20,000 nucleotides of DNA from Pachysolen tannophilus NRRL Y-2460 (taxonomy: Eukaryota): positions 1,517,078 to 1,537,077 of the forward strand of contig KV454012.1 in assembly GCA_001661245.1 (NCBI GenBank), read 5' to 3'. Shown here piece after piece: positions 124 to 19,764 of the stretch. Each line of letters starts with the position of its first letter. The stretch's first letter is position 1. The notes below the pieces were generated by a model. It searched no databases. It was not told the DNA's origin and was given only the letters and a program-made list of their open reading frames with translations. The position numbers and the translations under genes were made by a program.

Positions 124-1407
124 ATGGGGGTTCATAAAGAAACTGAAATATGTCGATTGCCTATTACTTTCAATCAACAGAATAAATATTATAGAGTTCA
201 TTGTTATCTTATAGCTGCAAAACTTCATCATGTTTCTCCTAAACTTATGGTTACGGATTTTACTTCGAATTTAAACATACTGACAACAGATTGTGATGAG
301 ATCATAATAGGTAATGAACAAGTGCTAAATAGAGCACAGTTATTGAGGATTAATATTTATCCAGAGAAGTTCAATGTTTTCATCAAGCTGTTAAAAGATC
401 GTAAACCAGATTTTTATCTTCGAGAGATTTACAGAAATGTTTTCCCAGATTTAATCTTTCTTACACTTGATATTAGATTGAATATTTATAATGGTACATT
501 GGAAGGTATTGTGGATAATATTTGGTTTTTAAGCTATGAAGAAGAGAATCAGTATGTTGATAAGTTGTTTAAAAGGTTTATTACAAATATGCCGGATTTT
601 TTCATTAGAGAAAATATATCTGATATTTCTAAAATTATACCTCAGAGATATTTAATTAAGTATGATGATAAAAAAAAGCACCAAACGATAGCTGAACGAT
701 TTATAAAGCTGAAAAAAGAAGATACATCTTTTGATCAGGTTATAGATTCTAAATACGAAGAAGATTTTGAAGAAAGTTCGGAGCCAGAAGTTTATAATGA
801 GCCAGAACCAGAAATAGAACCAGAAATAGAACCAGAAATAGAACCAGAATTAGAATCAGAATTAGAACGGACTGGACAAAATAATAAGATCTTATCAAGA
901 AATAATGGTATAATATCTATAGGGGATTTGAAAAAAAAAGTACTGAAAACTGGGATAGACGAAGATTTAACGTTTACTATAAGGGCAAAAGTTATAGCGA
1001 TATTACCATCTTTTGAAGAATTAATCAAAATTGACAATGAAACAAATCAAATTTGTTTAAAGAACATTGAAATATACGTAACGGACATTGATAATAAAGA
1101 TATGGTTTATGAAGAATCTCATCAATCGGTTTTAAAATTTCAAATATCAAATCATTTTCAAATTTTAAGTTTTTTATCAAATGAAAATACCCAGTTAGCT
1201 AGTAATTCTCAATTATTATTATTTAACCTTTTATTACAAAAGGAAGCTATGGATAAGAAATTTCAGAAATTGATAAGTTTAGGCAAATTTCATAAATTCA
1301 AAATTGAATGGAACAATAAGATTAAAATTAATGACAATCATAAGTTCTACCTTGAAGGATGGGAGTGTTTAAAATCCCCGTCACTGCACCAAATGGTTAA
1401 TGAATAA
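124..1407 (+). CDS. Putative two-OB-fold single-stranded telomeric DNA-binding protein (small Cdc13/Pot1-like)
   Basis: 427-aa ATG ORF, certainly coding. The N-terminal beta-rich domain contains LMVTDFTSN, like the V-T-D-[FY]-T-x-N motif of Pot1/Cdc13 OB folds. An acidic EPEI-repeat linker follows, then a C-terminal domain (ISIGDLK...FTIRAKVIAILP...IEIYVTD) resembling an OB fold. Size and layout recall Candida-type Cdc13. Family assignment is from recalled motifs only. Confidence 0.5.
   Translation: MGVHKETEICRLPITFNQQNKYYRVHCYLIAAKLHHVSPKLMVTDFTSNLNILTTDCDEIIIGNEQVLNRAQLLRINIYPEKFNVFIKLLKDRKPDFYLREIYRNVFPDLIFLTLDIRLNIYNGTLEGIVDNIWFLSYEEENQYVDKLFKRFITNMPDFFIRENISDISKIIPQRYLIKYDDKKKHQTIAERFIKLKKEDTSFDQVIDSKYEEDFEESSEPEVYNEPEPEIEPEIEPEIEPELESELERTGQNNKILSRNNGIISIGDLKKKVLKTGIDEDLTFTIRAKVIAILPSFEELIKIDNETNQICLKNIEIYVTDIDNKDMVYEESHQSVLKFQISNHFQILSFLSNENTQLASNSQLLLFNLLLQKEAMDKKFQKLISLGKFHKFKIEWNNKIKINDNHKFYLEGWECLKSPSLHQMVNE
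805..864 (+). repeat. 12-bp coding tandem repeat (GAACCAGAAATA x3 plus 2 variant units) encoding EPEI/EPEL/ESEL
   Basis: Directly visible: units at 805, 817, 829, 841 and 853. Confidence 0.95.
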
Positions 1408-1541: not shown

Positions 1542-2543
1542 CTATAAAGAATCAAGTTGTTTGTCCATAAATTGTAAAATTTGATTTAAAGTCAGTGAGA
1601 ATATGTCATCAGTTTCAAGAAACAAATTGTGTCTAGCATTTGGGAAAGTTACAATCTTTCTGTTTTCATTTGGAATCTTATCATTGATTTTGTCGATGAA
1701 CTGAATACCACCATCCATAAGGTTTATCTTATCATCTTCTCCAAACAATATGAGAATTGGTTTATCGTGATTTTTGATCTTGGAGATTGCGTTGTTTTCT
1801 AATAAATCTCTTCCTCTAAAGATCATATCTTTTAATTGACCAATAGTACCAACTGGGTCTTCCATACTATCTGCAATGCAAAAATCTAAATAATCTTGAT
1901 TACTACTAACAAATTCAGCAGCCAAATTGGTATTAAATTTAATATCAGTCTTGAACCAACAAACAAACGTCACCATTTTTTCTATTATTAGTGATGGCTT
2001 ACTTTTTGGATGGAGCAAAATCAATGGTGCGGCAGATACAACACCTTTAACCTTATCCAAATGTTTCCCAAAGGCCAAATAACTTAAAACTAACCCACCA
2101 CCCATTGAATGACCTAAAAGATATAAATTCAATGGTTTCTTCTCTTCTAACAACTGATCATATGAATAATCGATAAAATTATCCAAATCTTTATAAGAAT
2201 AATGATCATTAGTAAGACCTTTTAATTTTCCTGGAGAAGTTAAACCCGCACCTCTTTGATCAAAAAACAAACATTCATACCCATTACAAGACAATTGATC
2301 CAATAATCTATCATAAACTTTTGCTCTTTCACAAAATCCATGAACAACTAAGAACCTTGCTTTAAATTTAACATCTTTAGGAATAGGCCAAAAAACAGTA
2401 TAAAATTCAACTTCAGAATTTGAAAATTTAATTTTCCGATGTAATGGAGAATTCTTCAGTTTATAAGGATAACTCAATTTATCAAACTCATAAACACTGG
2501 TGGATTTAGGGTCTATATCGGTGACTACATATTTTTGGGACAT
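1542..2543 (-). CDS. YJU3: Monoglyceride lipase / lysophospholipase, alpha/beta hydrolase
   Basis: HGFCE motif, FFDQRGAGLTSPGK, nucleophile elbow GHSMGG, catalytic Asp (DDKIN) and His (ARHNLFLE). Start placed at the first ATG (2543, MSQKY), not the TTG at 2585 used by the ORF track. Confidence 0.85.
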   Translation of the reverse strand: MSQKYVVTDIDPKSTSVYEFDKLSYPYKLKNSPLHRKIKFSNSEVEFYTVFWPIPKDVKFKARFLVVHGFCERAKVYDRLLDQLSCNGYECLFFDQRGAGLTSPGKLKGLTNDHYSYKDLDNFIDYSYDQLLEEKKPLNLYLLGHSMGGGLVLSYLAFGKHLDKVKGVVSAAPLILLHPKSKPSLIIEKMVTFVCWFKTDIKFNTNLAAEFVSSNQDYLDFCIADSMEDPVGTIGQLKDMIFRGRDLLENNAISKIKNHDKPILILFGEDDKINLMDGGIQFIDKINDKIPNENRKIVTFPNARHNLFLETDDIFSLTLNQILQFMDKQLDSL

Positions 2544-2691: not shown

Positions 2692-3693
2692 TCAAAAATC
2701 TTGAGGTTCAGCAACTGCAGTTGATAAATTATTACCATTTACATCATCTATAAATTCTTCATCTTCAGCAAGTCTAGAAATTGGAGAATTTCCTTCTTTT
2801 GGAGTTAATCGACCAATAAATTTTTTCATACTTTCATCCATTCCAGAAAAACCTCTTATTATTTCAGCTAATGGCCAAGGAACTGCTCTCATGATAGGCA
2901 TAAAATTACCATAAAATGGAAGTTTAATTTCACCTCTTCTTCCTAATTCAACTGCACTTAATACATTTCTTGCAACGTGGGATGGATCTAATTCTGGAGC
3001 TAATAAAGTAGAAGGTGTTTTAACTCCGGTAAACATTCTTGTTTTCAATTGACCGGGACAAATTAATAAAGTTTTTACACCTTTTGGATTTAAAGATGGA
3101 GGACCTAATTCATAAGTTAAAGATTCATGTAATGCAATTAATCCAGATTTTGAAGCTCCATAAGCACTTAATCTTGCTGGAGACATATAACCCAATACAG
3201 ATGCAATAGTAACAATATAACCTCTTTTAATTTTTAACATATCAGGTAAAAATGCTTTAATAGTATAAAAACTAGACATTAAATTAATTTGTATAGTTTT
3301 TTCAATATCATCAAAACTTAAATCAATTAAAGACTTACCTCTAGTTATACCAGCATTATTTATTAATAATGAAACAATCCCAACTTCTTTTTTAACAATT
3401 TCACTTGTTTTTAAAACTTCTTTTCTATTACTAACATCACATTTATAATAGTATACATTTTCTAATCGGTCCTCTGCATTACTTGGAACTACAATATCTA
3501 ATACAACAATTTTAGACGTATTTTTCTCCAAAAATTGTTTAACTAATTCTTTACCTAACCCTGAACATCCTCCAGTAATTAATACAATATCTCTATGTGG
3601 ATCAAAATAATTCCCAATAACAATATTAGAAAAAGTCCTATAAGCTTTATTAAAACGATAAAACGCTAATGATATTGAAATCAGACCTGTCAT
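2692..3693 (-). CDS. Classical short-chain dehydrogenase/reductase (YDL114W/TDA5-like, 17beta-HSD11/retinol dehydrogenase-like)
   Basis: TGGCSGLG Rossmann motif, NNAG and catalytic YGASK (YxxxK). It is divergent from IWR1, as YDL114W is in S. cerevisiae. Confidence 0.9.
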   Translation of the reverse strand: MTGLISISLAFYRFNKAYRTFSNIVIGNYFDPHRDIVLITGGCSGLGKELVKQFLEKNTSKIVVLDIVVPSNAEDRLENVYYYKCDVSNRKEVLKTSEIVKKEVGIVSLLINNAGITRGKSLIDLSFDDIEKTIQINLMSSFYTIKAFLPDMLKIKRGYIVTIASVLGYMSPARLSAYGASKSGLIALHESLTYELGPPSLNPKGVKTLLICPGQLKTRMFTGVKTPSTLLAPELDPSHVARNVLSAVELGRRGEIKLPFYGNFMPIMRAVPWPLAEIIRGFSGMDESMKKFIGRLTPKEGNSPISRLAEDEEFIDDVNGNNLSTAVAEPQDF

Positions 3694-4104: not shown

Positions 4105-5235
4105 ATGGAAGAAGAATTAGTGAGGGTACTAAGGGTCAAGAGGAAAAGAGACCAAGATCCGTTACAGGCGTTGGTATTAAAGAATCCAAATTTCAGTACT
4201 AAGAGATTGAAGAAGGATTATTATTTCAAATTTGCAAGAACGGATTCAGAGGAACTAGAAGCTGCTACTTTGAGTAAAGATAAGATATTACAAGTCGATT
4301 CCAGAACGGGACAACTTTCATTATTATCGACCAATAATGTTAATAATGGAGGAGAAAAGTTTAATAACAATAATGATAATAATGATGATGATGAAATGGA
4401 TCAAAATCAACTATCTGATGAAATCTTGATGATGGTGAAGGAACAAGAAGAAATCGCCAAGAAGAAGAATAGTAGTAATCTTGTAAAAAACCTGCAGAAG
4501 CAACAGCTTAAGAGACCTGTTAGGATAAAACATAAGCCTTCGGAACCTGTAAAAATGAAAAATTATAGTGATACAGAATATGTTTATGATGTTTATTATA
4601 GAGGTAAGGATAATGATTCTGAAAAATATGAGAATTCAAAGATTGGTTATATTAGATATGATGAAGAATTGTTTAATTTTTTGAGCAATAACGATGATAA
4701 TGCAGGTAATGATGAAGAAATAAATTTTAATGATGATGATGATGATTCTAATGCAGAGGATTATTATCAGAATGATTACCCTGAGGATGAAGATGATGAT
4801 CGTAATTCTGATATAGTGGATCCTGATCTGGAATATCTGGAAGAGTTTAATGGTCTTGTTCTGAGTGATGATGAAGATGATAGTTATGAAATATCGCATA
4901 ATAAAAAAAGATTTACACGGAAAGAATATTTGAATTATAAAGAAGGTGGAGAAGAAGATGAAGAAGAAGAAGAACTTAACAACGAGATTTTAAACGATAG
5001 CTTAGTACAAGAAGGTTTTGATAACCTTTATAATGAATATTATGGTAGAAATGATTCAGATGATGGTGTATATTATGAGGGTCCAACAAGTTTCTTGGAT
5101 AATGGTAACTTATCTGAAGAAGAACAAGAATTTAAAAGAAATACGTTTTTCAAAAGTGATGAAGATGATGATTTGGCTATCCACAGAGATCGTATATTCG
5201 GAGAATTAGAAAGAATGATTACCGATGAGAATTAA
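4105..5235 (+). CDS. IWR1: RNA polymerase II nuclear import factor Iwr1
   Basis: N-terminal LRVKRKRDQDP NLS, YVYDVY, and the signature DDDSNAEDYYQNDYPEDE in an acidic protein. First ATG is at 4105 (AAAATGG context); the track's TTG start at 4063 runs through a (TA)n tract. Confidence 0.9.
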   Translation: MEEELVRVLRVKRKRDQDPLQALVLKNPNFSTKRLKKDYYFKFARTDSEELEAATLSKDKILQVDSRTGQLSLLSTNNVNNGGEKFNNNNDNNDDDEMDQNQLSDEILMMVKEQEEIAKKKNSSNLVKNLQKQQLKRPVRIKHKPSEPVKMKNYSDTEYVYDVYYRGKDNDSEKYENSKIGYIRYDEELFNFLSNNDDNAGNDEEINFNDDDDDSNAEDYYQNDYPEDEDDDRNSDIVDPDLEYLEEFNGLVLSDDEDDSYEISHNKKRFTRKEYLNYKEGGEEDEEEEELNNEILNDSLVQEGFDNLYNEYYGRNDSDDGVYYEGPTSFLDNGNLSEEEQEFKRNTFFKSDEDDDLAIHRDRIFGELERMITDEN

Positions 5236-5699: not shown

Positions 5700-5719
5700 T
5701 TCAAAAATGACTCAAGGAC

Positions 5720-5849: not shown

Positions 5850-6090
5850 TTTGCTTTCAACAATTCATGGTATTCTACTACCAGAGAAGCACAAAACTTC
5901 CTCCAAGCTCTCGACTTACAGAGAAAATACATTTAAGTTCACAGTCACCCTTAATACCTGGTGCTCTGAAGAACTTGACACAGTTCAGCAATTCTTGTTC
6001 ATGTGAAAACCTTTTATCCAAGCAATCGGTTACGCCCCTATGATAGTGGATAAACTCGTGCCCATGCCTTTTTCCACCAAACACATTTAC
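5850..6090. ncRNA. Candidate structured non-coding RNA (unidentified)
   Basis: Hand count gives 85/200 G+C (~42%) over 5881-6080, in otherwise very AT-rich intergenic DNA. Stems: 6013-6020/6047-6054 and 6003-6009/6070-6077. No recognisable protein in any frame I read. Confidence 0.3.
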
Positions 6091-6371
6091 TGATAATCTT
6101 TATCTAATAAACTTTTGAGATGTCCTGAAATGACATTGAAATGTTAAATTCAAAAATTAAAACATTTCAAATTATACAAGAAAATTTTCTAATCATTAAT
6201 TTGATTTATAATTACCTAAAGAGCATCTGATAACATGCTCTGCCTAGCTATCCTCCATCACAAATCCTCAATCCCAATCATCAACATCGCAATAATATAT
6301 TAAAATTATAATGAAAACCGTTATTATTGTCACTTTTGTCATCATAAAATTCGCATCGCTATAATGACACA

Positions 6372-6385
6372 GGAAAATTTTTTTG
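6372..6385. promoter_or_regulatory. RRPE-like element upstream of URB2
   Basis: GGAAAATTTTTTTG contains AAAAWTTTT ~100 bp upstream of the ATG of a ribosome-biogenesis gene. A PAC-like GCGATG lies on the minus strand at ~6354-6359. Confidence 0.5.
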
Positions 6386-6483
6386 AAGTCTTCGTCTTTA
6401 TACAACTATTAATCTAAAAAGATCAGGAACAAGATAATTTATTTTGAGTTGTTGAGGTCTTCCATATAAGAGAAAGCTGCTAA

Positions 6484-9400
6484 ATGAGTTCCAAGAATGG
6501 TATGGTAAGTTTATGTTCTTTTCTTTTTTATTGTTAATTTCTTTTTTTTGTGTTGTGTTGTTTAAATTGAGTTTTAATTTGCTAACAAATTGTTAAAGAA
6601 GCAGGTGAAAGATTTATCAACTGCAGAAGGGCTAACCCGTTTCTTAAGATCAAAGGATATTGTAGTTCAGCAGTTAATAGAGATATCAAATGGTTTATTA
6701 GATGATGAATATAGTAGCGTTTTACCGAATAAGGTGGATTTTATATTTGAATTGCTTGTGGATAGGTTAAACGATTTTAAGGGAAATTTTAAAGATTTTA
6801 AATTAAACTATGAGATTTGGTTGTTATTCATCAAAAATTGGAGTAACTTTAGTGAAGAGGTTGTTTCTCAAAGAAATAAAATATTCAAGCTTTTGAAAAT
6901 TTCAGATATAGTTGAATTTGTCTTGAAAGAAATAGCAAATGATGACAATACTAAAATTGGAGATAGAGTTAAATTATTAGATTCCATTATGCAAATGTGC
7001 GATTTAGTATTAAGTCAATTATATTTAACTATAACTGTTGAGCAAGGCTTGAATATATTGCAAAACTACGTAAGGATAATACACCAGAATACTTTCAATT
7101 TCCAAAATGTATCGAGATGGACAATTACAATAAACAAAATGTACAATGTGTCAGTATCAGATAAACGTATTACTCAAAAATTCACAAATGAATTTTCTTC
7201 AAGATGTTTATTTGGAATCTTGAGAATTATATCAGATAATAAAATTGATGAAACGAGTAAGAGAATTTTAGAAAGCATAATATTGGAGACAGTCTTAAAC
7301 AAGGATAATATATCTTTTTTCAAAATAAATGTTAAAACTTTTCTATCAATTTTGGCAACAGAAACAGATACTGAATCATCCATGTTGTACTTGTATAAAC
7401 TTGCTGTTTGGAGAATAAATGATGTAAATGTTTTGCAAGAGGTTTTCATCTTGATTTCAGACAAATTTCCAACAATTCTAACTACATTAATGAGTTATTT
7501 GTTGCTGTTGAATAGAACTTTGTCTAAAGATTTTTTATCCCAGTTGATCGAAAAATGCTTCATTAGCACTGACAGTAATAATTACAAGTTAGTTTCTCAA
7601 ATTTTGGAATTGAATTTAGAACTTGGAGTACGATTTGCCGACAAAATTTTTGATTTATTTATTTTGGACGGTAAAAACCTCGATTTGAACATTTTTTTCG
7701 AAATCTCCTCAAAAGTGATTAATTGTTTTCTGAGAATGAGAGAATTAGAAAAATTGTATGAAATCTGGTTAGGACTTATTCCTATAAATTATAATTTGTT
7801 TGCAAATGATAAGTTCATATCTTTGGTTAGCAGAGAGACAACAAGTTTTTCAGATTCGCAGCTATTAAATTTATTGAATATTACTTTATTACCGAAACTT
7901 TCGATAGAGACAGATAGACAGCAAGAAGAGGAAGAAAAAGAAAATGATAATGGGAGCGGGGATTTAAAATATAAGGTTGATCAATGTTTGATTGCCTTAA
8001 TTACAATTGTTCAAAGTTTGTTTAACTCAAATCAGCAAAGGGTGAATTACTTGAAACCTGCTTTGTTCGCAGCTTTGAGCTCTGAAATCGATCTTTATAG
8101 CTATAGTCATAAAACGATATTATCGTTTTGGAGATTAAAATATTTGATATTATGCTTGTACAATGATGATGATTTTGAAGAGTTAAATATCGAAGAATTA
8201 GGTTCAAAGGTTACAGAATCTTGGCTTGAAAGTGTTTCTCAGGGTAAAGATAGGAACCAATATATTTATTTCACTTTATTCAGGTTAAGAGAATTAAGTG
8301 AAATTAGTATATCACCTCAACTAATTGATGATTTTATAAAATACATTTCAGATAATAGAGATGACATCGAACTTTTGAAAATATCATTTGATAGATGGTT
8401 GGTATTTTTCAATTTATTCTTTAGCAGAGATCAAATTAGACAAATTGTAAAAATTGTTTTAGAGGATGTTAACAAGAAAAATATTAATCAAGCAAAAGAA
8501 GAATTATGGAATCAAAGTTTTGAAAATGAATACATTTACGAACAGCACCAAATAGTTCAAGAATGCATTGATCAATTGATAGAGATTATTGCGGAACGAA
8601 AAGAACCATTACTTTCATACTTGGAGTTAGCCAGAAAAATTCCAACACAATGCTTCAACAGGTTTGATAAAATCAAGCTATTAAACATTTTATATGAGCT
8701 TTCAACTAAAGTGGGACAACCAGAAATTATCTTGAAATCATTATCAATTATTTTAAATTTATTATCTCAGCCTACTTTTAAATCAAACATTGAATCTGAT
8801 ATTCACAAAATTTATAAACTTATTGAAATTGCTGAAGAATCAAATAATGACTTCATACTAAATACGATATTGGACATTTTCACAAATATTTGGAAACATA
8901 ATTTAAATCAGCACTCAGACAAATTGAACGAGGAATGGATTTCAAATTTGCTACAAAATTTAACTGAATTTTTTAATAAATTTGAAGTCAATAGAATGGA
9001 GGCCAAATTACCTCCTGAATATTTAGTTTGTTTTGTGATACTAACAAATATTCCTTCTGATAAGAAAGGTATTAATAGAGAACAATTGAGCAACTTGAGT
9101 TCTAATTTTGCGAAATCAGCATTGTCGTCGTTGACAACATTAGTTTCCAACTATAATGAAAATGAAATTGTTCTGAGTTCAATGTCCTGGTTATTGAGGT
9201 CATTATATGAAATTGATGTTGATATTAACAACAAACAACTATTTGTTGAAATGAAAGTTATTGTCAGAGACGTCGGTAAAGTAACAAGGTCTCCTACAGT
9301 TAAGTCCCACTTGTTTTTATTACTTTGTAAATTATTAGATTCAACAATAACAGAATCGTTATATTTGATGTCCTTATACGTTGTGTTGAAAACAGAAAAC

Positions 9401-10372
9401 CTTGGAGCCGATATAACTTTTACTGATTTAGATAGAGGCATTGAAAACTATCTTAAGAAATTGGACTTTGATGTTTTCATGGATAGCTTAAGCTCTTTAC
9501 TTGCTTCGTTCAGTGAAATTGAACAAAATTTTGATATTTATGTTTCTTTACTCAGCATTTTTCTCAAAAATATTCATTTCTTCAAAGCTAAAGATGTTAA
9601 CACCAGATCACAAAAACTTTTAACTTCAGCATTATCAACAGTTTCAACTTATCATGATAAATTGATGGCACAGGATGATGACCAGGATTCAAAAGCAATT
9701 TTAATCGTTTTGAACATGTTGAAATCAGTTTTAGTGGATATTAATTGGGCTTTAACCCAATATTCATTTGAATTAATAATGTCCTTAGTAACCAAGACTA
9801 TATATTCATTACAACTGAATTTGCAAATTCCAAATTCTACGGCAATTTATGTGTTGTCAACACAGGTTGTTTCTAACGCATTATTATTTCATAGATTTAG
9901 GCTTTCAGGCCGTCATCATTTGATTACTTCTACATTTGTGCCTTTAATGGAGTGTTTATTCATTAAAAACAATAAAAAAGTTTTCAATGAGTCAATGAAC
10001 AGTAATAAAGGTGCAATTTTCAAGTCCATAGACTGTGCAACATCATTTCAGAGAATCTTAAGTAATTTATGTGAACCACCCAATAACTTACAGAATAACT
10101 CAGCTCAATTGAACAGTTCCTCTTCATTGATAAAAAAATCACTCAGAAAACATTTACCAGTATTGCTAATAAATTATGTAAACTTTCAATCCAAGTACAA
10201 GATGGATAATAAAATCAGAGAAGAAGTAGCAAATGGTATAACTGTAATCTTTGACGTTTTATCACAAGATGAGTTAATTGTCATTAGTGCTTCCTTGGAT
10301 TTCCTGGGACGAACCTATTTCAGAAACTTGTACGATGACTATAAAAAGTTTGGCAAATGGAGAGATGACTAG
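6484..10372 (+). CDS. URB2: Nucleolar pre-60S ribosome biogenesis protein Urb2/Npa2; spliced, exon 1 6484-6504, exon 2 ~6605-10372
   Basis: C-terminal Urb2 domain (HRFRLSGRHHL...LSNLCEP...LRKHLPVLL...IFDVLS...LYDDYKKFGKW) and N-terminal STAEGLTRFLRSK. The long ORF has no early ATG, but the exon ATG AGT TCC AAG AAT GGT ATG splices to it in frame. Confidence 0.9.
6505..6604 (+). other. Spliceosomal intron of URB2 (phase 0, ~94-100 nt)
   Basis: Donor GTAAGT at 6505, T-rich body, branch point TGCTAAC at 6580-6586, and acceptors AAG (6598), AAG (6601) or CAG (6604), all in frame. Confidence 0.85.
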
Positions 10373-10637: not shown

Positions 10638-11822
10638 ATGGGGAAAATAGAGGAAGTTCATGATGAGGAACCAACTAAAGATCAACTAATAGATGAAGCT
10701 ATAAGTGAATGGGAAAGGAAAAGGTATGTCCCAAAGCTGGGGGAACCAGATTTACCACCTCAATTGCGCAAAATGGCGAACAAAAGTGTTGATGATTACA
10801 TGAAAGAATTCAATAAAATGCCTTTCTTTATGACTCAGTTGGAGGATGATGATGGAGAGAATACACAGTTGGAAGCGTTGAAAGCATTAGCGTACGAAGG
10901 TGAGCCTCGTGAAATTGCAACGAATTTTAAAAATCAAGGGAATGATTGTTATAAGGTAAAAAGGTATAAAGATGCTATTGAATATTATAATAAGGCAATA
11001 GGAGTGGACTGTGGAGATGAAAAGATTGAACTGGCACTATATTTGAATAGAGCTGCTTGTAACTTGGAATTGAAAAATTATAGAAGATGTATTGATGATT
11101 GTAAAATGTGTTTGAAAATAGAACCTAATAATGTTAAAGCATGTTTCCGATCAGCAAAAGCTTTTTTCGCAATAGGAAAGTTAGAAGAGGCTTCTCTGGT
11201 CCTGGAGTATGCACTAGGGATAGATCCAGAAAATGCAGCAGTTAAAAGTGTGATGGTGCAGGTTGCTGATAAAAAGCTGAAATTGAAAGAATTAGAAGAA
11301 AAGAAACAAAGAGAATTAGAAGAGAAAAAATTCATTCAAGATACATTAGAAACTGCAATTCAAATAAGAGGAATGAAAATAATTAGATCTTCTAAACCTC
11401 CTGAAATCTTAGAAAATTCTGTTTTGAGATTAGAAGATTCAAAAGATCCAAATGCACAATTAATTTTTCCTGCAATGATCTTATATCCAACAACTGATGA
11501 ATTTGACTTTGTTGCGGAAGTGAGTGAACTAACAACAGTGAGGGAATTAATGGAGTTGGTTATGGATCGACCAGAAGAGTATTTTAAGGATCCAAAACAT
11601 GAGAACTTTGTTCCTAAGAAATTAGAGGCTTACATGGAAACTGAAAGAGGAGGCTTGATTAAAATAGGCAAAAAGATTCCTATCAATAATGCATTGATGG
11701 CACAGAATGTTAAAGTTCCTTTGTTTGATAATTCTTTAAGAATTTATTTTGTTCCTAAAGTAGATTCAGCGAACTGGTTGAAAACATGGGATGAACAGAA
11801 GGCTTTGAATAGACGAAGCTAA
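10638..11822 (+). CDS. CNS1: Hsp90/Hsp70 TPR co-chaperone Cns1 (TTC4 family)
   Basis: LPPQL, PFFMT, LEALKALAYEGEP, TPR motifs (NFKNQGNDCY, NRAACNLELKNYRRCI) and C-terminal wheel domain (YPTTDEFDFV, METERGGLIK). Confidence 0.95.
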   Translation: MGKIEEVHDEEPTKDQLIDEAISEWERKRYVPKLGEPDLPPQLRKMANKSVDDYMKEFNKMPFFMTQLEDDDGENTQLEALKALAYEGEPREIATNFKNQGNDCYKVKRYKDAIEYYNKAIGVDCGDEKIELALYLNRAACNLELKNYRRCIDDCKMCLKIEPNNVKACFRSAKAFFAIGKLEEASLVLEYALGIDPENAAVKSVMVQVADKKLKLKELEEKKQRELEEKKFIQDTLETAIQIRGMKIIRSSKPPEILENSVLRLEDSKDPNAQLIFPAMILYPTTDEFDFVAEVSELTTVRELMELVMDRPEEYFKDPKHENFVPKKLEAYMETERGGLIKIGKKIPINNALMAQNVKVPLFDNSLRIYFVPKVDSANWLKTWDEQKALNRRS

Positions 11823-12024
11823 CTCATTTATGATGAATACAAAACATCAACGTTAACAAACTTATTTATAGACTTTTAATTTTGCGATTGATTAATTACA
11901 AACTAAATACATGAGCAGTACAAAACAATGTTCAGTTAAAATAGATAATCTCTGGTAATATATTCAAGAAAAAAAAAAAAAAAATGCTAATAACCGTAAT
12001 TAAGAATTTTTAAAAATAAAATAC

Positions 12025-15000
12025 TTATTGAAGTCTCCAGCCCATTTTTTTGGAATAGTCTTCAATTTCTTGCTGATTTAGCATATCTTGAACTCCCCAT
12101 TGAGCAGAAGAAGACCTTGCTCTAAATTTTGATAGTCTTGAATTTTTGAAAATTTCTTCCATGTTTAAAGGAGCAACTGGACCAAATATACTATCCGGAT
12201 TAATATTTTGCTGATTTAAAAGCAGTTGTTTCAAACCTGGTGAATTAGCCCAACTTTTTAATACGGTTCCCTCTTCATCATCTTCTGATTCAGAATATAT
12301 CTCAGGCAACAGTATAGGTGATTTTGAAGGAGTAGTCGAACTAGCGATGACTCGACGAGATGCTGGGGTAGTTGAGGTTATGTTCATAGGTTTAGAAACT
12401 ATATCGTTATTAAACTTGATTTTTTCAGAAGAAAATTTGATGGCGTCAACTTGTGGAATACTTGATGTTTGGTTCAATCTGGCATGTTGTAACATTGCAG
12501 TTTTCATTAAAGTTTGCGGCTGTTGTATATTTTTCTGCTGATATGAAGCGCCCACAGCAGTCTGTTCTTTTCTAGCCCCAGACACCCTGGTAGCCTTTTG
12601 CCCTAGTCCTTTGCCTTCTTCTGTTTTTAAACGTTTGACTGATGATTCATGCAGAGAGTTATTCTCTGCAGTAGTAAGTTGCAGATCATGGTGATGATAA
12701 TCTATGACTTGCTGTTTTCGTTTGAGCGAGTTGTTTATTGATGACTGACGATTGGCATGTTCCGATGATTTCATCGATTTTTCTCTCAGTCGATTTAAAG
12801 GCTGCTTCAATTGTTCATCAATTGAAATCATTTTGTGAGGATTTGACAACCTTTGTCTTCTTAATTCTTCAAGTCTTTGTCTTTCTTCTGCCATTTTTTT
12901 ATTGATTCTATAATGTGGAGCTATAGATGTTGTAGTACTAGTTTTTGATGCATGCTTGTTTAATGATGAAGAAGTTAATGATTCTTTAGCTTTAAATTTG
13001 TTTTTACTCAAGTCCATTCCAGAAGAAGATTTCCTTAAAGGCAATACAAGCTTTGACGGTACATCATTCTCTGTTAAATGCACTACATTTGCTTTCTTGA
13101 CAGAGTCTAATTCCATATTTGGTGACTTTGAACTAGTGGTTCTTCTCAGAGATGTTGATGCTGTCGATAACGTTGATGAAACAGTGAAAACAGGTTGTTT
13201 TGGAATCGGTCTCAAATTTGTATTCAAAGGGTTCAATGTGACAGCAGTCCTTGATTCTGTGTATTTTTTAGTTAATGGACTTTCTTCTTGAAAGTTATCA
13301 TTACGAGAACTCTGGTGACGAACCGTGGATTTTTTCACATTTCTTGCAGCACTAGACTCGGTATCAGCAGTCAACCTAGTTAATAGATTACCTCTTGAAG
13401 TACTTCTTTGAATTGAGTTAGCAGTAGGTGGTCTCAAGATTGGCTTGGGAGGAACTTGATCAGACTTATTTGAGCTTTCCTTTATATCAACTTTTTGTTT
13501 CTTTGGGGAATATATCAAGTTCTTGGCACGCTTAATAGCATTTGCAAATATGCTATTTAAAGCTCCACTTTTTGCTGGTGATATGCTGTTCTGCAATTCG
13601 ATCTTACTAGAATCTGATTGAGGCTTACTTGAAAAAGAATCTATAGGACTCTTTGATGGTGATTTCGCTACCCAGTCGTTATCTGAATTCTGCCTCAGAA
13701 CTCTGAAAGGAGATGATTCATCTTTATGCTCTTTTGAAATTGTGTTTGAAAGTGATTTCAAAGTTGTCGTATTTTTATGTAATTGTGGATATAATGATTT
13801 TGGTTTAAGTGATTGTGGTGATATTTTAGGTGAATCAGATTTAGCAGCTACTAATTTGGGAGCCAATTCTATTTTAGCACTGGTATCTAATTTTACCAAT
13901 TTTTCAATTTCTCGAGTTCTAGAAGTGTTAGAAGAACTTTTTGTACTTGACTTAACTGTCAAAGGTTCTTTTGATGGTAAAGATGCAAAACCAGAAAATT
14001 TTTCGGTAATAGGAGTAATCGAAGGTAATTTTTTTGAGCCATTTCCTTCAATATCTAAATTTTTATCTTCTTTGTTATATAAATCTGCTGAATTGGTTTT
14101 AGGATAATTTGTAATAACTGAAGGACCACTTTCTGGTTCATGGACAACTGTAAACGAATCTGTATTGGAATTCCCATTAGTCTGTTTAAATTTTATTGTC
14201 TTGGTGATGGCTTGGAAAGATTCATCCATGGAAGTATCATACACCGGATGATTTGCATGGTCATTATCATTATTATTATTACAGTCATTGTCATTGTTAT
14301 CGTTGTGGTTGTAGTTATTTTCCAGTTCTGGCGCTGTGATATTTTTATGATTTTCCTTTGGAGGAATATAGGAGATGGGTTCAAAATTTTCTGCTTTACG
14401 CAATAGAACTGAATCATCCGATGGTGAGTGTCCATTTTGAAAATTGAGTTGAATTGTGGGTTGATTTTGCTTGATATTTTCAAATGATTTTTCAATCTGA
14501 ATTGATGTATTAATATCAGAAAAAGTTGATCTTCTTTTCCCATTTACAGAAGTTGCAGTAGATAATTCCTTGGTAATACGAGGATTTGGACTTTGATTTT
14601 TCTGTTTCCTTATATTTTCATCTCTAGTAGTTTCTTTTGGAGGTGAAATAGAAATTTCTTTATTTAGAGGGGCCAATTTTGGAATGAGTAAATCATTATT
14701 CTCATGTTCAAGAATTTTAGTTGATTTCGGTATTATTTTTTCGACTTGATCAATGATTCTTTGTCTTTCCAATCTCTTTTTATCATTTGTTAAATCTTGG
14801 TCTATATCTTTATCGTCTTTACTTATTGTGAAAATAGGTGTTGGAGGCTTTTCAATATTGATATTTATCTTTGTAGGTGATGATTTCATGTTTGTCTTAT
14901 TGATATTATCTGTAATATCTTTCAATGGCGATTTTGACTCTTTTATAGCTTCATTCCGTATTTTTCTAACCGGTGAATCTTTTGTGTTCAATCTTTTGGG

Positions 15001-15234
15001 AGATTTTAACAATAATAAAACACTCGCAGATTCATCCGAATTGACAACTTCATTCATCTGCTCATTTAACCAGGCCAATTCCGCAGAAACAGAAAACGCA
15101 AACTGCTTCGAATGATGGGCAACCATCGTGTTGGCAACGTTCATCTCGCTCACCACCCATTTCGAAGTACCGGGTACCACATTGTTTGGTTTCTTTGATG
15201 CTGTTAGTCCCCAGAAATTGGAAGTATTTAACAT
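12025..15234 (-). CDS. SLI15: Inner centromere protein INCENP/Sli15 (chromosomal passenger complex)
   Basis: C-terminal IN-box (LPEIYSESEDD...WANSPGL...NPDSIFGP...EEIF...FRARSSSAQW), N-terminal PGTSKW...ELAWLNEQM, and a long S/T/P/K-rich disordered middle with many SP sites. It is convergent with CNS1, as in S. cerevisiae. Confidence 0.9.
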   Translation of the reverse strand: MLNTSNFWGLTASKKPNNVVPGTSKWVVSEMNVANTMVAHHSKQFAFSVSAELAWLNEQMNEVVNSDESASVLLLLKSPKRLNTKDSPVRKIRNEAIKESKSPLKDITDNINKTNMKSSPTKININIEKPPTPIFTISKDDKDIDQDLTNDKKRLERQRIIDQVEKIIPKSTKILEHENNDLLIPKLAPLNKEISISPPKETTRDENIRKQKNQSPNPRITKELSTATSVNGKRRSTFSDINTSIQIEKSFENIKQNQPTIQLNFQNGHSPSDDSVLLRKAENFEPISYIPPKENHKNITAPELENNYNHNDNNDNDCNNNNDNDHANHPVYDTSMDESFQAITKTIKFKQTNGNSNTDSFTVVHEPESGPSVITNYPKTNSADLYNKEDKNLDIEGNGSKKLPSITPITEKFSGFASLPSKEPLTVKSSTKSSSNTSRTREIEKLVKLDTSAKIELAPKLVAAKSDSPKISPQSLKPKSLYPQLHKNTTTLKSLSNTISKEHKDESSPFRVLRQNSDNDWVAKSPSKSPIDSFSSKPQSDSSKIELQNSISPAKSGALNSIFANAIKRAKNLIYSPKKQKVDIKESSNKSDQVPPKPILRPPTANSIQRSTSRGNLLTRLTADTESSAARNVKKSTVRHQSSRNDNFQEESPLTKKYTESRTAVTLNPLNTNLRPIPKQPVFTVSSTLSTASTSLRRTTSSKSPNMELDSVKKANVVHLTENDVPSKLVLPLRKSSSGMDLSKNKFKAKESLTSSSLNKHASKTSTTTSIAPHYRINKKMAEERQRLEELRRQRLSNPHKMISIDEQLKQPLNRLREKSMKSSEHANRQSSINNSLKRKQQVIDYHHHDLQLTTAENNSLHESSVKRLKTEEGKGLGQKATRVSGARKEQTAVGASYQQKNIQQPQTLMKTAMLQHARLNQTSSIPQVDAIKFSSEKIKFNNDIVSKPMNITSTTPASRRVIASSTTPSKSPILLPEIYSESEDDEEGTVLKSWANSPGLKQLLLNQQNINPDSIFGPVAPLNMEEIFKNSRLSKFRARSSSAQWGVQDMLNQQEIEDYSKKMGWRLQ

Positions 15235-15784: not shown

Positions 15785-18700
15785 ATGGATTCTGTGAATC
15801 TGGTTGTTGTTTACAAGTCTTTGAGGAATAACCTTGTAAATTTACCTTCATCGTTAGTGTCCATGATATTTGGAGCAGATATCAATGTTCAAGATGTTAT
15901 TTGTGAGTTTGTTTGGGAAGGCAAAAGGAATTCGTTTAATTATGGTTATTGTGGCTGGTCTGGGTATACTTCGAGAGTTTCAGCTCTGATGACAAATGTT
16001 AATAAGGAGTATGTGGAGATTGACCCAATTTTTGCATCATCATTAGGATTACAAGACTCTAGTGAGATTACACTCAATCTTAAATTCAATAACTATAGTG
16101 TTGCTTCTACAGTTGAGCTTGAGCCTGTTTCTTCGTTTGATTGGGAATTGGTTGAATTAAACGCTGGAGTGTTGGAAAATAATTTATTATTTCAAACGAG
16201 GTGTATCTTTGAAAATCAATCTATTATAGTTTATCCAAGTTCTACAACAAGTGCAAAATTAAAAGTTTTAAATTTTAACCCAAAGACTATGGGATCACAG
16301 GGAAACTACAAAAAATCACCAGCTTATGCAAAGATTGGAGATAATACAGAATTTCATATAAAACCAAAAATTAATAAGAAAAATGAAGAGGATAAAAAAA
16401 AATCAACAAGGAAAAGTAATGGTAGCATCAAGTCTAAACTGTCGCAACATGAAATTGTGCCGAATGTATTGTTTAGAGGTATTTCAATGCCTCATGAACT
16501 TTTCAATATAAATGATCCCTTGCACACTGAAAATAAATTTGAAGTTTATGTGAATTTTGATGAATGTATCAGTAAACTACAATGTGCCAAATATGTGTAT
16601 GTTTCGGTGATACCTGGACCAGGGATTAGTCCTAAAACTGGATGGTTGAAAAACTCCAACTCAAATGATACTGGTGACATTAACACCAGCAGCAGTGGCA
16701 ACAACGCCAGCAACAACAACAGCACCAATCATAATGCCGAACTCCCAGTAAAAGAGTCTTCTAAAGTAGTTGCCAAATTGGTACACTATCTGAATGCTCC
16801 TGATTGTCATGTGGGTTTATCAAAAATTTTATCCATTTCATTAGGTCTAGAAGGTTCAATTGGTAATCTTATAAAACTTGAATCTGCCACATCTCCTTTA
16901 ATATCGAAACCAAAAGAATTAATTATTCACCCATATATAACAAAAACAGAACCTTCAGTGAAATTACAAGGAATCGATATTCAAAAGGCTGGTGCACTTG
17001 ATAAGAAAAAGGATTTAAAAATTCAACAACAGAAATTAAATGAAAAATTAAACGAAATTTTAAAAGATTCAAAAATAATTGATTCTAATTGTTTAACAAA
17101 TTATTGTAAATTACCAATCTTAGATGATTTTGTGTTACCTTTTGGAGGAATCTTAGAATTTAAGAAGATTCGAGATGGTTGGTGCGAACCTTTAAATCTA
17201 AAAGAAGTCAAAATTGAGATCGGTGAAAACATTTTGAAAGCAGAGTCTTTAATTCCTGGAAAGTTAATATATAACCAGTCTCTGGACAAAGATTTGTTAA
17301 AAGAATATGAAGTGGTTGGTCAAGATAAGTTGATAAATTCAATTGTCAGGATATTGAAACGTGGAAATATTGGCGCATCAATATACGGGAACTCTGGCAG
17401 TGGTAAAACAGTGATAGCAAACACTGTTTCTGAAAACATGGCGAAATTGGGGTTTTATGTTAAGAGTATAAACTGCGAATCATTGGCCACTTTGAATCCA
17501 ACTAATTTGTTAAAAGCATTTGAAGATGTTATAAAAGAAATTAGTTGGTCTTCACCATCTTTGTTGATATTAGAAAATTGTGATTCGATCATGCCACAAG
17601 AATTGGAACATTCTGATAATTCACAAACAAAACAATTATCAGAGTTTTTAAATACTCAATTTTTGGACAAAGTTATGAAAAGGCGGAAAGTCAGTTTATT
17701 GTTAACATCAAAATCGAAAAATAGTATAAATTCGTTACTTCTTTCCTCACATTTGATTGAAGAAGATTTCAACTTGAAATCTCCAGATCAAGAATTGAGA
17801 AAAAAAATTTTGGAATATTATTTAATTAAATTAGATTTGAAGGTTGCTCATAAAGAAATGATTAATGATGTTTCAGTTGACACCGAGGGTTATTTACCTG
17901 GAGATTTGAAAATTTTTATTGATAGAGCTTATCATGATTTAATTTCTGAAATTATTGAAACAGAACAAGATCAACAACATGAACAGGAGAAGTTGCCTTT
18001 AAAAATTAAAAAATCAAATTTTTCAAAAGCTTTAGAAGGTTTTACTCCTTCATCCTTACGTGGTGCCAAATTACTGAAATCTACGGTAAACTGGAATGAA
18101 ATTGGTGGTTTAAGAAAAGCAAAACAATTACTTTCAGAAACATTAGAATGGCCAACAAAGTATGCTCCTATATTTGCTAATTGTCCCTTAAGATTGAGAT
18201 CTGGTATTTTGTTATATGGATATCCAGGTTGTGGTAAAACGTTATTGGCTTCTGCTATTTCTTCACAATGTGGGCTAAATTTCATTTCCATCAAGGGTCC
18301 AGAAATATTGAACAAATACATTGGTGCTTCTGAACAATCTGTCAGAGAATTATTTGAAAGGGCATCGCTGGCTAAACCTTGTATATTATTTTTTGATGAA
18401 TTTGACTCTATTGCTCCCAAGAGAGGCCATGATTCTACTGGAGTAACTGATAGAGTTGTTAATCAAATGCTTACCCAAATGGATGGTGCAGAAGGTTTAG
18501 ACGGGGTGTACGTCTTGGCAGCAACAAGTAGACCAGATCTCATTGATAGTGCATTGTTGAGACCTGGTAGATTGGATAAAAGTGTCTTGTGTGGATTACC
18601 TGACTTGGAGGATAGATTAGATATTTTAAGTTGTATCACTTCAAAGATGGTTATAGATAAGAGTGTTGATTTGAATGTGATTGCTGATCTGACCTCTGGT

Positions 18701-19210
18701 TATTCTGGGGCAGATTTACAAGCAGTAGGTTATAATGCATATTTAACTGCTGTTCATGAGAAATTAGAAAATGATGAAAAGTTGATTATTGAAGTTCAAA
18801 AAGAATTAAATTTTTCAGGTAATAATAAGAATAAGAATTTAGAATTTTTCCAAATTGGTAAAGGTAAAAATTTCAAATCTTCATTACAAGATTTAAAACC
18901 ACTGGAAAAATTAGTTATAGCCAAACAATTGGAACATATTTTTTCTAATTTATCGATAGATAGACAAGAAGATGAAATGTCCCAAAATAGTTTAATAAGT
19001 TCTAACGGTCAAGATAAAAATAATGGTGTAATTTTAAAACAAGAACACCTTTTAAAATCGTTAAAAGATACAAAGAAATCAATTTCTGAAAATGAACTGC
19101 TCAAGTTGTCCAAGATTTATAATCAATTCTTAAGTCCAAATGAAAGAGATGGTAAGATGCCTGATGGACTTGCAAGCACTGATATTGGAGGTAGAACTAG
19201 TTTAATGTAA
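15785..19210 (+). CDS. PEX1: Peroxisomal AAA+ ATPase Pex1
   Basis: N-terminal NNLVNLP and LEPVSSFDWELVE; D1 Walker A GNSGSGKT with degenerate Walker B; D2 GYPGCGKT, FFDEFDSIAPKRGHDSTGVTDRVVNQ and ALLRPGRLD; C-terminal IGGRTSLM. Confidence 0.97.
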   Translation: MDSVNLVVVYKSLRNNLVNLPSSLVSMIFGADINVQDVICEFVWEGKRNSFNYGYCGWSGYTSRVSALMTNVNKEYVEIDPIFASSLGLQDSSEITLNLKFNNYSVASTVELEPVSSFDWELVELNAGVLENNLLFQTRCIFENQSIIVYPSSTTSAKLKVLNFNPKTMGSQGNYKKSPAYAKIGDNTEFHIKPKINKKNEEDKKKSTRKSNGSIKSKLSQHEIVPNVLFRGISMPHELFNINDPLHTENKFEVYVNFDECISKLQCAKYVYVSVIPGPGISPKTGWLKNSNSNDTGDINTSSSGNNASNNNSTNHNAELPVKESSKVVAKLVHYLNAPDCHVGLSKILSISLGLEGSIGNLIKLESATSPLISKPKELIIHPYITKTEPSVKLQGIDIQKAGALDKKKDLKIQQQKLNEKLNEILKDSKIIDSNCLTNYCKLPILDDFVLPFGGILEFKKIRDGWCEPLNLKEVKIEIGENILKAESLIPGKLIYNQSLDKDLLKEYEVVGQDKLINSIVRILKRGNIGASIYGNSGSGKTVIANTVSENMAKLGFYVKSINCESLATLNPTNLLKAFEDVIKEISWSSPSLLILENCDSIMPQELEHSDNSQTKQLSEFLNTQFLDKVMKRRKVSLLLTSKSKNSINSLLLSSHLIEEDFNLKSPDQELRKKILEYYLIKLDLKVAHKEMINDVSVDTEGYLPGDLKIFIDRAYHDLISEIIETEQDQQHEQEKLPLKIKKSNFSKALEGFTPSSLRGAKLLKSTVNWNEIGGLRKAKQLLSETLEWPTKYAPIFANCPLRLRSGILLYGYPGCGKTLLASAISSQCGLNFISIKGPEILNKYIGASEQSVRELFERASLAKPCILFFDEFDSIAPKRGHDSTGVTDRVVNQMLTQMDGAEGLDGVYVLAATSRPDLIDSALLRPGRLDKSVLCGLPDLEDRLDILSCITSKMVIDKSVDLNVIADLTSGYSGADLQAVGYNAYLTAVHEKLENDEKLIIEVQKELNFSGNNKNKNLEFFQIGKGKNFKSSLQDLKPLEKLVIAKQLEHIFSNLSIDRQEDEMSQNSLISSNGQDKNNGVILKQEHLLKSLKDTKKSISENELLKLSKIYNQFLSPNERDGKMPDGLASTDIGGRTSLM

Positions 19211-19326
19211 TGACACGACTTTTAGTTTTCTCGAGTTGAGTAATAATAATAATAATAATAATATATATATTTATTTTATTTAGTTGAATTGTAGGATATC
19301 TTTGTCAATTAAAAAAAATAGATGAT

Positions 19327-19764
19327 ATGGCAATCCAGTATATATTAGTATTGAACAGACAGGGGAAAGTTAGGTTATCGAAATGGTTTAATAATTCAAT
19401 TTCAGAACAAGAAAAGTTTAAGATTAAAAATTCTATACATAGATTATTATCTTCAAGAGATAACAAACATCAATCGAATTTTGTTGAATTTGAGAAAAAA
19501 AAATTATGTTATAGAAGGTATGCTGGATTATATTTTATAATGTGTGTTGATCTATTAGATAATGAATTATATTATTTGGAGAGTATACATTTTTTCGTTG
19601 AAGTATTGGATTCATTTTTCAATAATGTATGCGAATTAGATTTAGTTTTCAATTTTTATAAAGTTTATGCAATAATGGATGAAGTATTTATGGCTGGAGA
19701 GATTGAAGAAATAAGTAAAGAAGTTATTTTGAATAGAGTGCTGTATCTTGAGAGATTGGATTAA
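19327..19764 (+). CDS. APS2: Clathrin adaptor AP-2 small (sigma) subunit
   Basis: [39 protein letters not shown] and [15 protein letters not shown], typical of sigma-2; 145 aa. Confidence 0.9.

What the first reader, a model, noticed from the sequence alone, without database searches (positions are those of the whole stretch)
18368..18370. CTG codons appear not to encode Leu: alternative genetic code, CUG=Ala favoured
Seen in the sequence: in-frame CTG at informative positions. Pex1 D2 reads LFERAS[CTG]AKPCILFFDE (18368), where the recalled family consensus is RAQAAKPC (S. cerevisiae RAQSVKPC). Other sites: Pex1 KL[CTG]KS (18074) and LKP[CTG]EK (18902); Cns1 IE[CTG]ALYLNRAAC (11031), YVPK[CTG]GEP (10737) and EEAS[CTG]V[CTG]EY (11196/11202; S. 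cerevisiae EEAKSAATF); Sli15 IN-box LKQ[CTG]LLNQ (12223-12225) and PI[CTG]LPEI (12310-12312); Aps2 RV[CTG]YLE (19741). Homologues mostly have small or polar residues there, while the motif leucines flanking these sites use other Leu codons (TTA/TTG/CTT/CTA). Established: yeasts have CUG-Ser clades and a rare CUG-Ala clade (Pachysolen, Nakazawaea, Peterozyma). Inference: Ala fits best; Ser or ambiguous decoding is not excluded.
Basis: partly seen in the sequence, partly recalled or inferred. Interest (0 to 1): 0.75.

Follow-up and report, generated by a model that had tools for sequence, protein, structure and literature searches.

The report
Known CUG-to-alanine code of Pachysolen

Summary

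The organism is named by a public record. Pachysolen tannophilus NRRL Y-2460 protein PACTADRAFT_32661 is identical to the Urb2 ORF over 1127 residues, except that it has A at all 5 CTG codons. Six of 8 further ORFs translated with NCBI table 26 match public proteins exactly, on a contig of the same length. The table-1 versions of Pex1 and Cns1 do not.

In ortholog alignments of Pex1, Cns1 and Urb2, Leu is the commonest residue at 1 of 16 well-occupied CTG columns. For the other five Leu codons it is 187 of 297 (Fisher p = 6e-6). A Codetta-like score ranks Ala first, Ser 2.7 nats behind and Leu 6.0 nats behind. On its own the window rejects Leu but cannot separate Ala from Ser.

Ala rests on published work: 97.2% of 907 fully supported CUG positions read as Ala by LC-MS/MS, and the tRNA(CAG) carries G3:U70 and A73 (PMC4937558).

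Verdict: interpretation correct, already known, low interest.

The parts
18368..18370 (+). Focal CTG codon, Pex1 residue 862 in the D2 AAA domain (ERAS[CTG]AKPCILFFDE)
   Evidence: In frame. The ortholog column is A 101, S 32, L 2 of 147, and S in S. cerevisiae Pex1. With table 26 the whole ORF is an exact public protein.
15785..19210 (+). PEX1 (1141 aa), 10 CTG codons (aa 6, 68, 219, 336, 500, 764, 862, 969, 1040, 1105)
   Evidence: ORF and CTG list. Pfam AAA and PEX-1N. PDB Pex1 of S. cerevisiae, E = 5.9e-161. The table-26 translation is exact in the public collection and the table-1 translation is not.
10638..11822 (+). CNS1 (394 aa), 5 CTG codons (aa 34, 132, 187, 189, 214)
   Evidence: Pfam Wheel and TPR. 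PDB Cns1, E = 2.7e-105. Column counts over 120 orthologues.
11202..11204 (+). Counter-example: Cns1 residue 189, a CTG in a conserved Leu column (TPR helix)
   Evidence: L in 113 of 120 orthologues. S. cerevisiae has A at this position.
12025..15234 (-). SLI15/INCENP (1069 aa), 8 CTG codons (aa 304, 513, 696, 816, 851, 861, 975, 1004)
   Evidence: Pfam INCENP_ARK-bind at 978-1029. Residue 1004 aligns with A of human INCENP. The table-26 translation is an exact public protein.
19327..19764 (+). APS2 (AP-2 sigma, 145 aa), 1 CTG codon (aa 139, 19741-19743)
   Evidence: It aligns with L of mammalian AP-2 sigma. The table-26 translation is an exact public protein.
6484..10372 (+). URB2: exon 1 at 6484-6504 (MSSKNGM), intron at 6505-6598 (GTAAGT ... 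TGCTAAC ... AG), exon 2 at 6599-10372. There are 5 CTG codons (aa 173, 248, 729, 943 and 1106 of the 6989 ORF).
   Evidence: The public 1264-aa record PACTADRAFT_32661 equals the window ORF except for A at all 5 CTG codons. The N-terminal 137 aa were mapped to the window. Pfam Urb2.
4105..5235 (+). IWR1 (376 aa), 4 CTG codons (aa 130, 242, 245, 253)
   Evidence: Pfam Iwr1. The table-26 translation is an exact public protein. Columns not examined.
2692..3693 (-). Short-chain dehydrogenase (333 aa), 1 CTG codon (aa 4)
   Evidence: Pfam adh_short. The table-26 translation is an exact public protein. Column not examined.
1542..2543 (-). Monoglyceride lipase, Yju3-like (333 aa), 2 CTG codons (aa 29, 317)
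   Evidence: PDB 4zwn, E = 2.6e-60; the CTG sites align with V and T of the S. cerevisiae enzyme. The table-26 translation is an exact public protein.
124..1407 (+). ORF of 427 aa with no Pfam family, 5 CTG codons (aa 53, 89, 196, 274, 421)
   Evidence: No exact public protein under table 26. Columns not examined.

Best explanation
The window is nuclear DNA of the budding yeast Pachysolen tannophilus (strain NRRL Y-2460 or an identical one). This species uses NCBI translation table 26, in which CUG is read as alanine.

According to the literature, the decoder is a tRNA of alanine type whose anticodon has mutated to CAG. Alanyl-tRNA synthetase recognises the acceptor stem (the G3:U70 pair and A73) rather than the anticodon, so this tRNA is charged with Ala and inserts Ala at CUG.

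All 41 in-frame CTG codons of the nine genes here, including Pex1 residue 862 at 18368-18370, are therefore alanine codons.

Most of them sit at weakly constrained positions. I infer that they are evolutionarily young codons that arose after the old Leu meaning was lost. A few sit on ancestral Leu columns (Cns1 189, Aps2 139) and would then be Leu-to-Ala substitutions.

Shown here: the organism's identity, how the public records translate these genes, and the depletion of Leu at CTG columns. Taken from the literature: alanine in peptides and the tRNA identity elements.
For: Identity of the organism
- One search lists a protein that its source names PACTADRAFT_32661 [Pachysolen tannophilus NRRL Y-2460], at 100% identity over 100% of the Urb2 ORF.
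- One search finds exactly five differences in 1127 residues. All five are at CTG codons, with L under table 1 and A in the record.
- 6 of 8 ORFs translated with table 26 are exact members of the public collection (NCBI, UniRef). Each lies on a contig of 2,193,613 bases, the same length as for the named record.
- One search also shows that the table-1 translations of Pex1 and Cns1 (2 of 2 tried) are absent.

CTG is not Leu
- Leu is the plurality residue at 1 of 16 CTG columns with at least 50% occupancy, against 187 of 297 for the other five Leu codons (Fisher p = 6.4e-6).
- The mean Leu fraction is 0.10 for CTG columns, 0.47 for other Leu codons and 0.12 for all non-CTG columns.
- None of 5000 samples of 16 ordinary Leu sites reaches the observed A-minus-L score.

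Ala ranks first
- Summed HMM emission log-likelihoods over 16 CTG sites put A first, S at -2.7, K at -3.0, E at -4.0 and L at -6.0 nats. CTA (also n = 16) gives L over A by 21.6 nats.
- Individual sites: the Pex1 862 column is A 101, S 32 of 147. Sli15 1004 aligns with A of human INCENP. Cns1 189 aligns with A in S. cerevisiae.

Literature
- PMC4937558 (abstract and Results part 1): LC-MS/MS of P. tannophilus NRRL Y-2460 found 907 CUG positions fully supported by fragment ions, 97.2% of them read as Ala.
- The same paper reports that the tRNA(CAG) has A73 and G3:U70 within G1GGC4 and no extended variable loop.
- PMC5951914 (four passages): the Ala clade is Pachysolen, Nakazawaea and Peterozyma.
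Against: The window alone does not establish Ala.
- CTG columns are unlike ordinary GCN columns. Ala is the plurality residue at 2 of 16 against 51 of 96 (p = 0.003).
- The A-minus-S score is +2.7, whereas 16 random GCN sites give 14.2 +/- 3.1, and 0 of 5000 samples fall as low as observed.
- A Gaussian fit of the two scores is actually highest for Thr-like and Cys-like site sets.
- Mean Ala and Ser fractions at CTG columns are equal, 0.12 each.

The scoring method has limited resolution. Thirteen of the 60 other sense codons were not returned as their standard residue, and TGT (Cys) also came out as A.

Some CTG codons lie on Leu columns: Cns1 189 (L in 113 of 120), Aps2 139 (L in mammalian AP-2 sigma) and Pex1 1105 (L in S. 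cerevisiae; R 64 and L 24 overall).

Coverage is incomplete. Only 24 of 41 CTG codons were examined against homologues, and of those 24 only 20 gave a usable comparison (16 well-occupied columns and 4 pairwise). The remaining 17 were not examined: 5 in ORF 124-1407, 1 in the SDR, 4 in Iwr1 and 7 in Sli15.

No tRNA gene lies in the window and no genome is held, so the tRNA was not inspected here.
Confidence: 0.97

Rival explanations
1. CUG is read as serine, as in the CUG-Ser1 (Candida, Debaryomyces) or CUG-Ser2 (Ascoidea, Saccharomycopsis) yeasts, through a serine-type tRNA(CAG).
For: Ser is second best, only 2.7 nats behind Ala. The mean Ser fraction at CTG columns equals the Ala fraction, 0.12 each. 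S. cerevisiae has S opposite Pex1 862 and Cns1 187. Several CTG codons sit in Ser-rich stretches of Sli15 and Pex1.
Against: The organism is P. tannophilus, for which proteomics gives 97.2% Ala at 907 CUG positions and the tRNA(CAG) is of the Ala type (PMC4937558). Only 0.12% of 5000 samples of 16 ordinary Ser sites reach the observed A-minus-S score. Ser is the plurality residue at 2 of 16 CTG columns against 78 of 209 for Ser codons (p = 0.057).
Confidence: 0.01
2. Standard code: CTG is an ordinary, rare leucine codon that happens to lie at poorly conserved positions.
For: CTG is not especially rare here: 41 codons, more than CTA (31) or CTC (13). Some CTG codons lie on Leu columns: Cns1 189, Aps2 139 and Pex1 1105.
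Against: Leu is the plurality residue at 1 of 16 CTG columns against 187 of 297 for other Leu codons (p = 6.4e-6). None of 5000 samples of Leu sites is as un-Leu-like. L scores 6.0 nats below A, whereas CTA with the same n gives L 21.6 nats above A. Public records of this species translate CTG as A, and published proteomics agrees.
Confidence: 0.005
3. Mostly Ala but ambiguous: a minor fraction of CUG is decoded as Leu (or another residue), as in Ascoidea asiatica. This would be tolerated or even useful at the few CTG codons on conserved Leu columns.
For: One CTG codon lies on a well-sampled conserved Leu column, Cns1 189. Three more align with L in single reference proteins: Aps2 139, Pex1 1105 and Pex1 1040, the last in a poorly aligned stretch. 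The tRNA(CAG) has G37 and an anticodon identical to Leu tRNAs. The paper also reports 8 positions with ambiguous and 18 with non-Ala peptide matches (PMC4937558). Stochastic Ser/Leu decoding exists in A. asiatica (PMC6041473, abstract in the search listing only).
Against: The same paper finds the non-Ala matches no more frequent than for the unambiguous AUG codon. It argues that the lack of an extended variable loop prevents mischarging. S. cerevisiae itself has Ala at the Cns1 189 position, so Ala is tolerated there.
Confidence: 0.015

Closest known systems
NCBI translation table 26, the Pachysolen tannophilus nuclear code (CUG = Ala); Muhlhausen et al. 2016, PMC4937558
   Same: It is the same organism and the same codon. 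Public proteins of this locus carry A at CTG. CTG avoids conserved Leu columns.
   Different: Nothing differs. The window is one instance of the published case. The tRNA and the peptides were not re-examined here.
CUG-Ala clade relatives Nakazawaea and Peterozyma (Krassowski et al. 2018, PMC5951914)
   Same: The same reassignment, shared by descent according to the paper.
   Different: The window is not from these genera. The best non-self Cns1 relative is only 62-63% identical.
CUG-Ser1 code (table 12; Candida, Debaryomyces, Babjeviella) and the CUG-Ser2 clade (Ascoidea, Saccharomycopsis)
   Same: The same codon is taken away from Leu in budding yeasts by a tRNA whose synthetase does not read the anticodon. 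CTG is likewise depleted at conserved Leu columns.
   Different: The new meaning is Ser through a Ser-type tRNA with a long variable arm. Here the meaning is Ala.

Membership tests
CUG-Ala nuclear code (NCBI table 26, Pachysolen clade) | The organism belongs to the Ala clade (Pachysolen, Nakazawaea, Peterozyma) | tested here: met
   A named P. tannophilus NRRL Y-2460 record is identical to the window's Urb2 ORF apart from the CTG positions. Six of 8 table-26 ORF translations are exact public proteins on a contig of the same length. Clade membership comes from PMC5951914.
CUG-Ala nuclear code (NCBI table 26, Pachysolen clade) | CTG codons do not sit preferentially on conserved Leu columns | tested here: met
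   Plurality Leu at 1 of 16 CTG columns against 187 of 297 for other Leu codons, p = 6.4e-6. None of 5000 Leu samples is as extreme.
CUG-Ala nuclear code (NCBI table 26, Pachysolen clade) | Ortholog columns at CTG favour Ala over every other residue | tested here: inconclusive
   Ala ranks first, but by only 2.7 nats over Ser across 16 sites. The CTG columns also differ from ordinary GCN columns.
CUG-Ala nuclear code (NCBI table 26, Pachysolen clade) | A tRNA(CAG) of Ala type: G3:U70, A73 and a short variable arm | not testable with these tools
   No tRNA gene in the window and no genome held. Reported as present in PMC4937558.
CUG-Ala nuclear code (NCBI table 26, Pachysolen clade) | Ala found at CUG positions in peptides | not testable with these tools
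   Published: 97.2% of 907 fully supported CUG positions (PMC4937558). I did not check whether peptides of these nine proteins were among them, because the supplements were not opened.
CUG-Ser codes (table 12; Ser1 and Ser2 clades) | The organism lies in a Ser clade, and CTG columns favour Ser | tested here: not met
   The organism is P. tannophilus. Ser scores 2.7 nats below Ala. Only 0.12% of samples of Ser sites reach the observed A-minus-S score.
Standard code (CUG = Leu) | CTG columns resemble those of the other Leu codons | tested here: not met
   as above.

The most novel reading that the evidence does not exclude
CUG decoding in Pachysolen is not strictly Ala. A small share might be read as Leu, dependent on site or condition, and this would matter at the few CTG codons on conserved Leu columns (Cns1 189, with L in 113 of 120 orthologues, and Aps2 139). 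The code change would then still be incomplete, as in Ascoidea asiatica.
Probability: 0.02. Interest if true: 0.5.

Novelty: already known. Interest (0 to 1): 0.1.

Why it matters
For the scan, this window and every other window of this genome must be translated with table 26. Otherwise each protein carries false leucines, 41 in these nine genes. As biology it adds nothing to the case published in 2016. It does show that a careful read of 20 kb can detect a sense-codon reassignment. It also shows that 20 comparable CTG sites (16 columns and 4 pairwise) suffice to reject Leu but not to name the new amino acid.

Tried and rejected
- **Whole genome:** none is held, so there was no genome-wide Codetta-like run and no tRNA(CAG) inspection.
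- **tRNA scan of the window:** 0 genes.
- **Earlier findings of the scan:** none for this genome.
- **Sequencing runs:** 5 runs from 2 studies hold the Pex1 stretch, one of them possibly the source. No RNA holder is listed and the names are coded. I did not pursue this and did not use read laying.
- **Urb2 ortholog search:** only 5 non-self relatives, so its columns are thin.
- **Naming the residue from the window alone:** bootstrap classification does not single out Ala. Log densities were Thr -5.2, Cys -6.4, Lys -9.1, Gln -10.1, Ser -10.4, Gly -10.4, Val -11.2, Ala -11.7, Glu -16.6 and Leu -26.1.
- **One-step origin of CTG codons:** I asked whether CTG columns are enriched for residues one base change away from CTG (L, V, P, Q, R, M). 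The result was 8 of 16 against 770 of 2358, p = 0.18, not significant.
- **Early idea of a close Saccharomyces relative:** the strong PDB matches to S. cerevisiae Cns1 and Pex1 suggested this. I dropped it after searches showed many closer relatives among Pichiaceae and CUG-Ser1 yeasts.
- the third homologous-protein search and the structure tools, because the question was already settled.

Full report
**Observation**

The window is AT-rich (30.5% G+C). It holds nine long ORFs:
- an unnamed 427-aa ORF;
- a Yju3-like monoglyceride lipase;
- a short-chain dehydrogenase;
- Iwr1, Urb2, Cns1, Sli15/INCENP, Pex1 and Aps2, named from Pfam and PDB matches.

The focal triplet at 18368-18370 is an in-frame CTG, codon 862 of Pex1.

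There are 41 CTG codons among 5354 codons, and every one of the nine ORFs has at least one. CTG (41) is more frequent than CTA (31) or CTC (13), which is odd for a G-ending Leu codon in so AT-rich a genome.

**Which organism**

A homology search with the Urb2 ORF returned a protein at 100% identity and 100% coverage. Its source names it PACTADRAFT_32661 [Pachysolen tannophilus NRRL Y-2460].

A residue-by-residue comparison found exactly five differences in 1127 residues. All five are at the five CTG codons, with L under the standard code and A in the record.

I then looked up exact sequences for the other eight ORFs translated with table 26. Six of 8 (lipase, SDR, Iwr1, Sli15, Pex1, Aps2) are in the public collection (NCBI, UniRef). 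Each lies on a contig of 2,193,613 bases, the same length as given for the named record.

The table-1 translations of Pex1 and Cns1 (2 of 2 tried) are not in the collection. The table-26 translations of Cns1 and ORF 124-1407 are also absent.

The Cns1 search agrees with a deep lineage near the Pichiaceae and the CUG-Ser1 yeasts. Its best relatives are 62-63% identical and include Ambrosiozyma monospora, Candida boidinii, Spathaspora and Babjeviella.

**Independent test on the window: raw ortholog columns**

I aligned Pex1 with 147 of the 150 representatives; three longer than 1500 aa were dropped. Cns1 was aligned with 120 relatives and Urb2 with its 5 non-self relatives.

These three proteins carry 20 CTG codons, and 16 of them fall in columns with at least 50% occupancy.

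| Codon class | Columns where its own residue is the plurality | Test against CTG columns |
|---|---|---|
| CTG, scored for Leu | 1 of 16 | |
| Other five Leu codons | 187 of 297 | Fisher p = 6.4e-6 |
| CTG, scored for Ala | 2 of 16 | |
| GCN (Ala) | 51 of 96 | p = 0.003 |
| CTG, scored for Ser | 2 of 16 | |
| Six Ser codons | 78 of 209 | p = 0.057 |

The mean Leu fraction is 0.10 for CTG columns, 0.47 for other Leu codons and 0.12 for all non-CTG columns.

**Independent test on the window: Codetta-like score**

I built HMMs from the orthologues only, aligned the query to them and summed the log emission probabilities over codon sites. Sixteen CTG sites fell on match states.

Ala ranks first, with Ser at -2.7, Lys at -3.0, Glu at -4.0 and Leu at -6.0 nats. 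All five other Leu codons come out as Leu, and CTA with the same n of 16 gives Leu over Ala by 21.6 nats.

The method is coarse. Thirteen of the other 60 sense codons were not returned as their standard residue, and TGT also came out as Ala.

**What the window cannot show**

I drew 5000 samples of 16 sites with the same per-protein make-up for each residue class.
- No Leu sample is as un-Leu-like as the CTG set.
- Only 0.12% of Ser samples reach the observed A-minus-S score of +2.7.
- Ordinary Ala codons give 14.2 +/- 3.1 for that score, and none falls as low as observed.

So CTG columns look like weakly constrained positions in general. Mean Ala and Ser fractions are both 0.12. The window alone rejects Leu firmly but does not name the new amino acid.

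My inference is that these codons are young and arose at tolerant sites after the Leu meaning was lost. That fits the tRNA-loss-driven model stated in the abstract of PMC4937558.

**Results against the reading**

Some CTG codons do lie on Leu positions:
- Cns1 189 is L in 113 of 120 orthologues, though S. cerevisiae has A there.
- Aps2 139 aligns with L of mammalian AP-2 sigma.
- Pex1 1105 aligns with L in S. cerevisiae. The column overall is R 64, L 24.
- Pex1 1040 aligns with L in S. cerevisiae, in a poorly aligned stretch.

Pairwise against solved reference proteins, the 13 CTG sites I could place are opposite L three times, A, S and T twice each, and E, Q, K and V once each.

Seventeen of the 41 CTG codons were not compared with any homologue.

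**Mechanism, from the literature**

I read the abstract, outline and first part of the Results of Muhlhausen et al. 2016 (PMC4937558). They report the following:
- The P. tannophilus tRNA(CAG) groups with alanine tRNAs.
- It carries the discriminator A73 and the G3:U70 pair within G1GGC4, and it lacks an extended variable loop.
- LC-MS/MS of strain NRRL Y-2460 covered 1433 of 16,824 CUG positions.
- Of those, 907 were fully supported by fragment ions, and 97.2% of these read as Ala.
- Deviations were no more frequent than for AUG.

I read four passages of Krassowski et al. 2018 (PMC5951914). They place Pachysolen, Nakazawaea and Peterozyma in one Ala clade. A second 2016 report (Riley et al., PNAS) I only recall; I did not see it. 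I opened no supplements.

**Verdict**

The interpretation (CUG not Leu, Ala favoured) is correct. The phenomenon is the published Pachysolen nuclear code, NCBI table 26. It is already known and of low interest, except as a reminder to translate this genome with table 26.

Noticed in passing
window 6484-6598: URB2 has a 7-codon first exon (6484-6504, MSSKNGM). A 94-nt intron follows at 6505-6598, with a GTAAGT 5' site, a TGCTAAC branch-point-like motif at 6580-6586 and AG at 6597-6598. The plain ORF call starting at 6989 therefore misses 137 N-terminal residues of the public 1264-aa model. The upstream part of exon 2 (6614-6988) has no CTG.
   Followed up: yes
window 124-1407 (+): This 427-aa ORF has no Pfam family. 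It has an acidic EPEIEPEIEPEI repeat and 5 CTG codons. Its table-26 translation is not an exact public protein. Its function and gene model are unknown.
   Followed up: no
window 10638-11822 (+): The Cns1 ORF is clearly intact and well conserved (E = 2.7e-105 to S. cerevisiae Cns1). Yet neither its table-26 nor its table-1 translation is in the public collection, and no relative above 63% identity was listed. The public annotation may lack this gene or model it differently.
   Followed up: partly
window 2692-5235, 10638-15234 and 15785-19764: Three gene pairs are worth noting. The SDR and IWR1 are divergent neighbours, CNS1 and SLI15 are convergent neighbours, and PEX1 lies next to APS2. From memory these resemble S. 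cerevisiae neighbourhoods (YDL114W/YDL115C and YBR155W/YBR156C). No tool was used to check this.
   Followed up: no
window 5236-6483: There is a gap of about 1.2 kb between IWR1 and the URB2 start, with no ORF of 100 aa or more. I did not examine it for small or intron-containing genes or for RNA genes.
   Followed up: no
CTG columns of Cns1 and Pex1: Several CTG codons sit where orthologues mostly have a residue whose codons are one base change from CTG. Examples are Cns1 34 (P 89 of 120), Cns1 187 (Q 69 of 120), Cns1 189 (L 113 of 120), Pex1 764 (Q 63 of 146) and Pex1 1105 (R 64 of 143). Overall the count is 8 of 16 against 770 of 2358, p = 0.18, so this is only a hint.
   Followed up: partly
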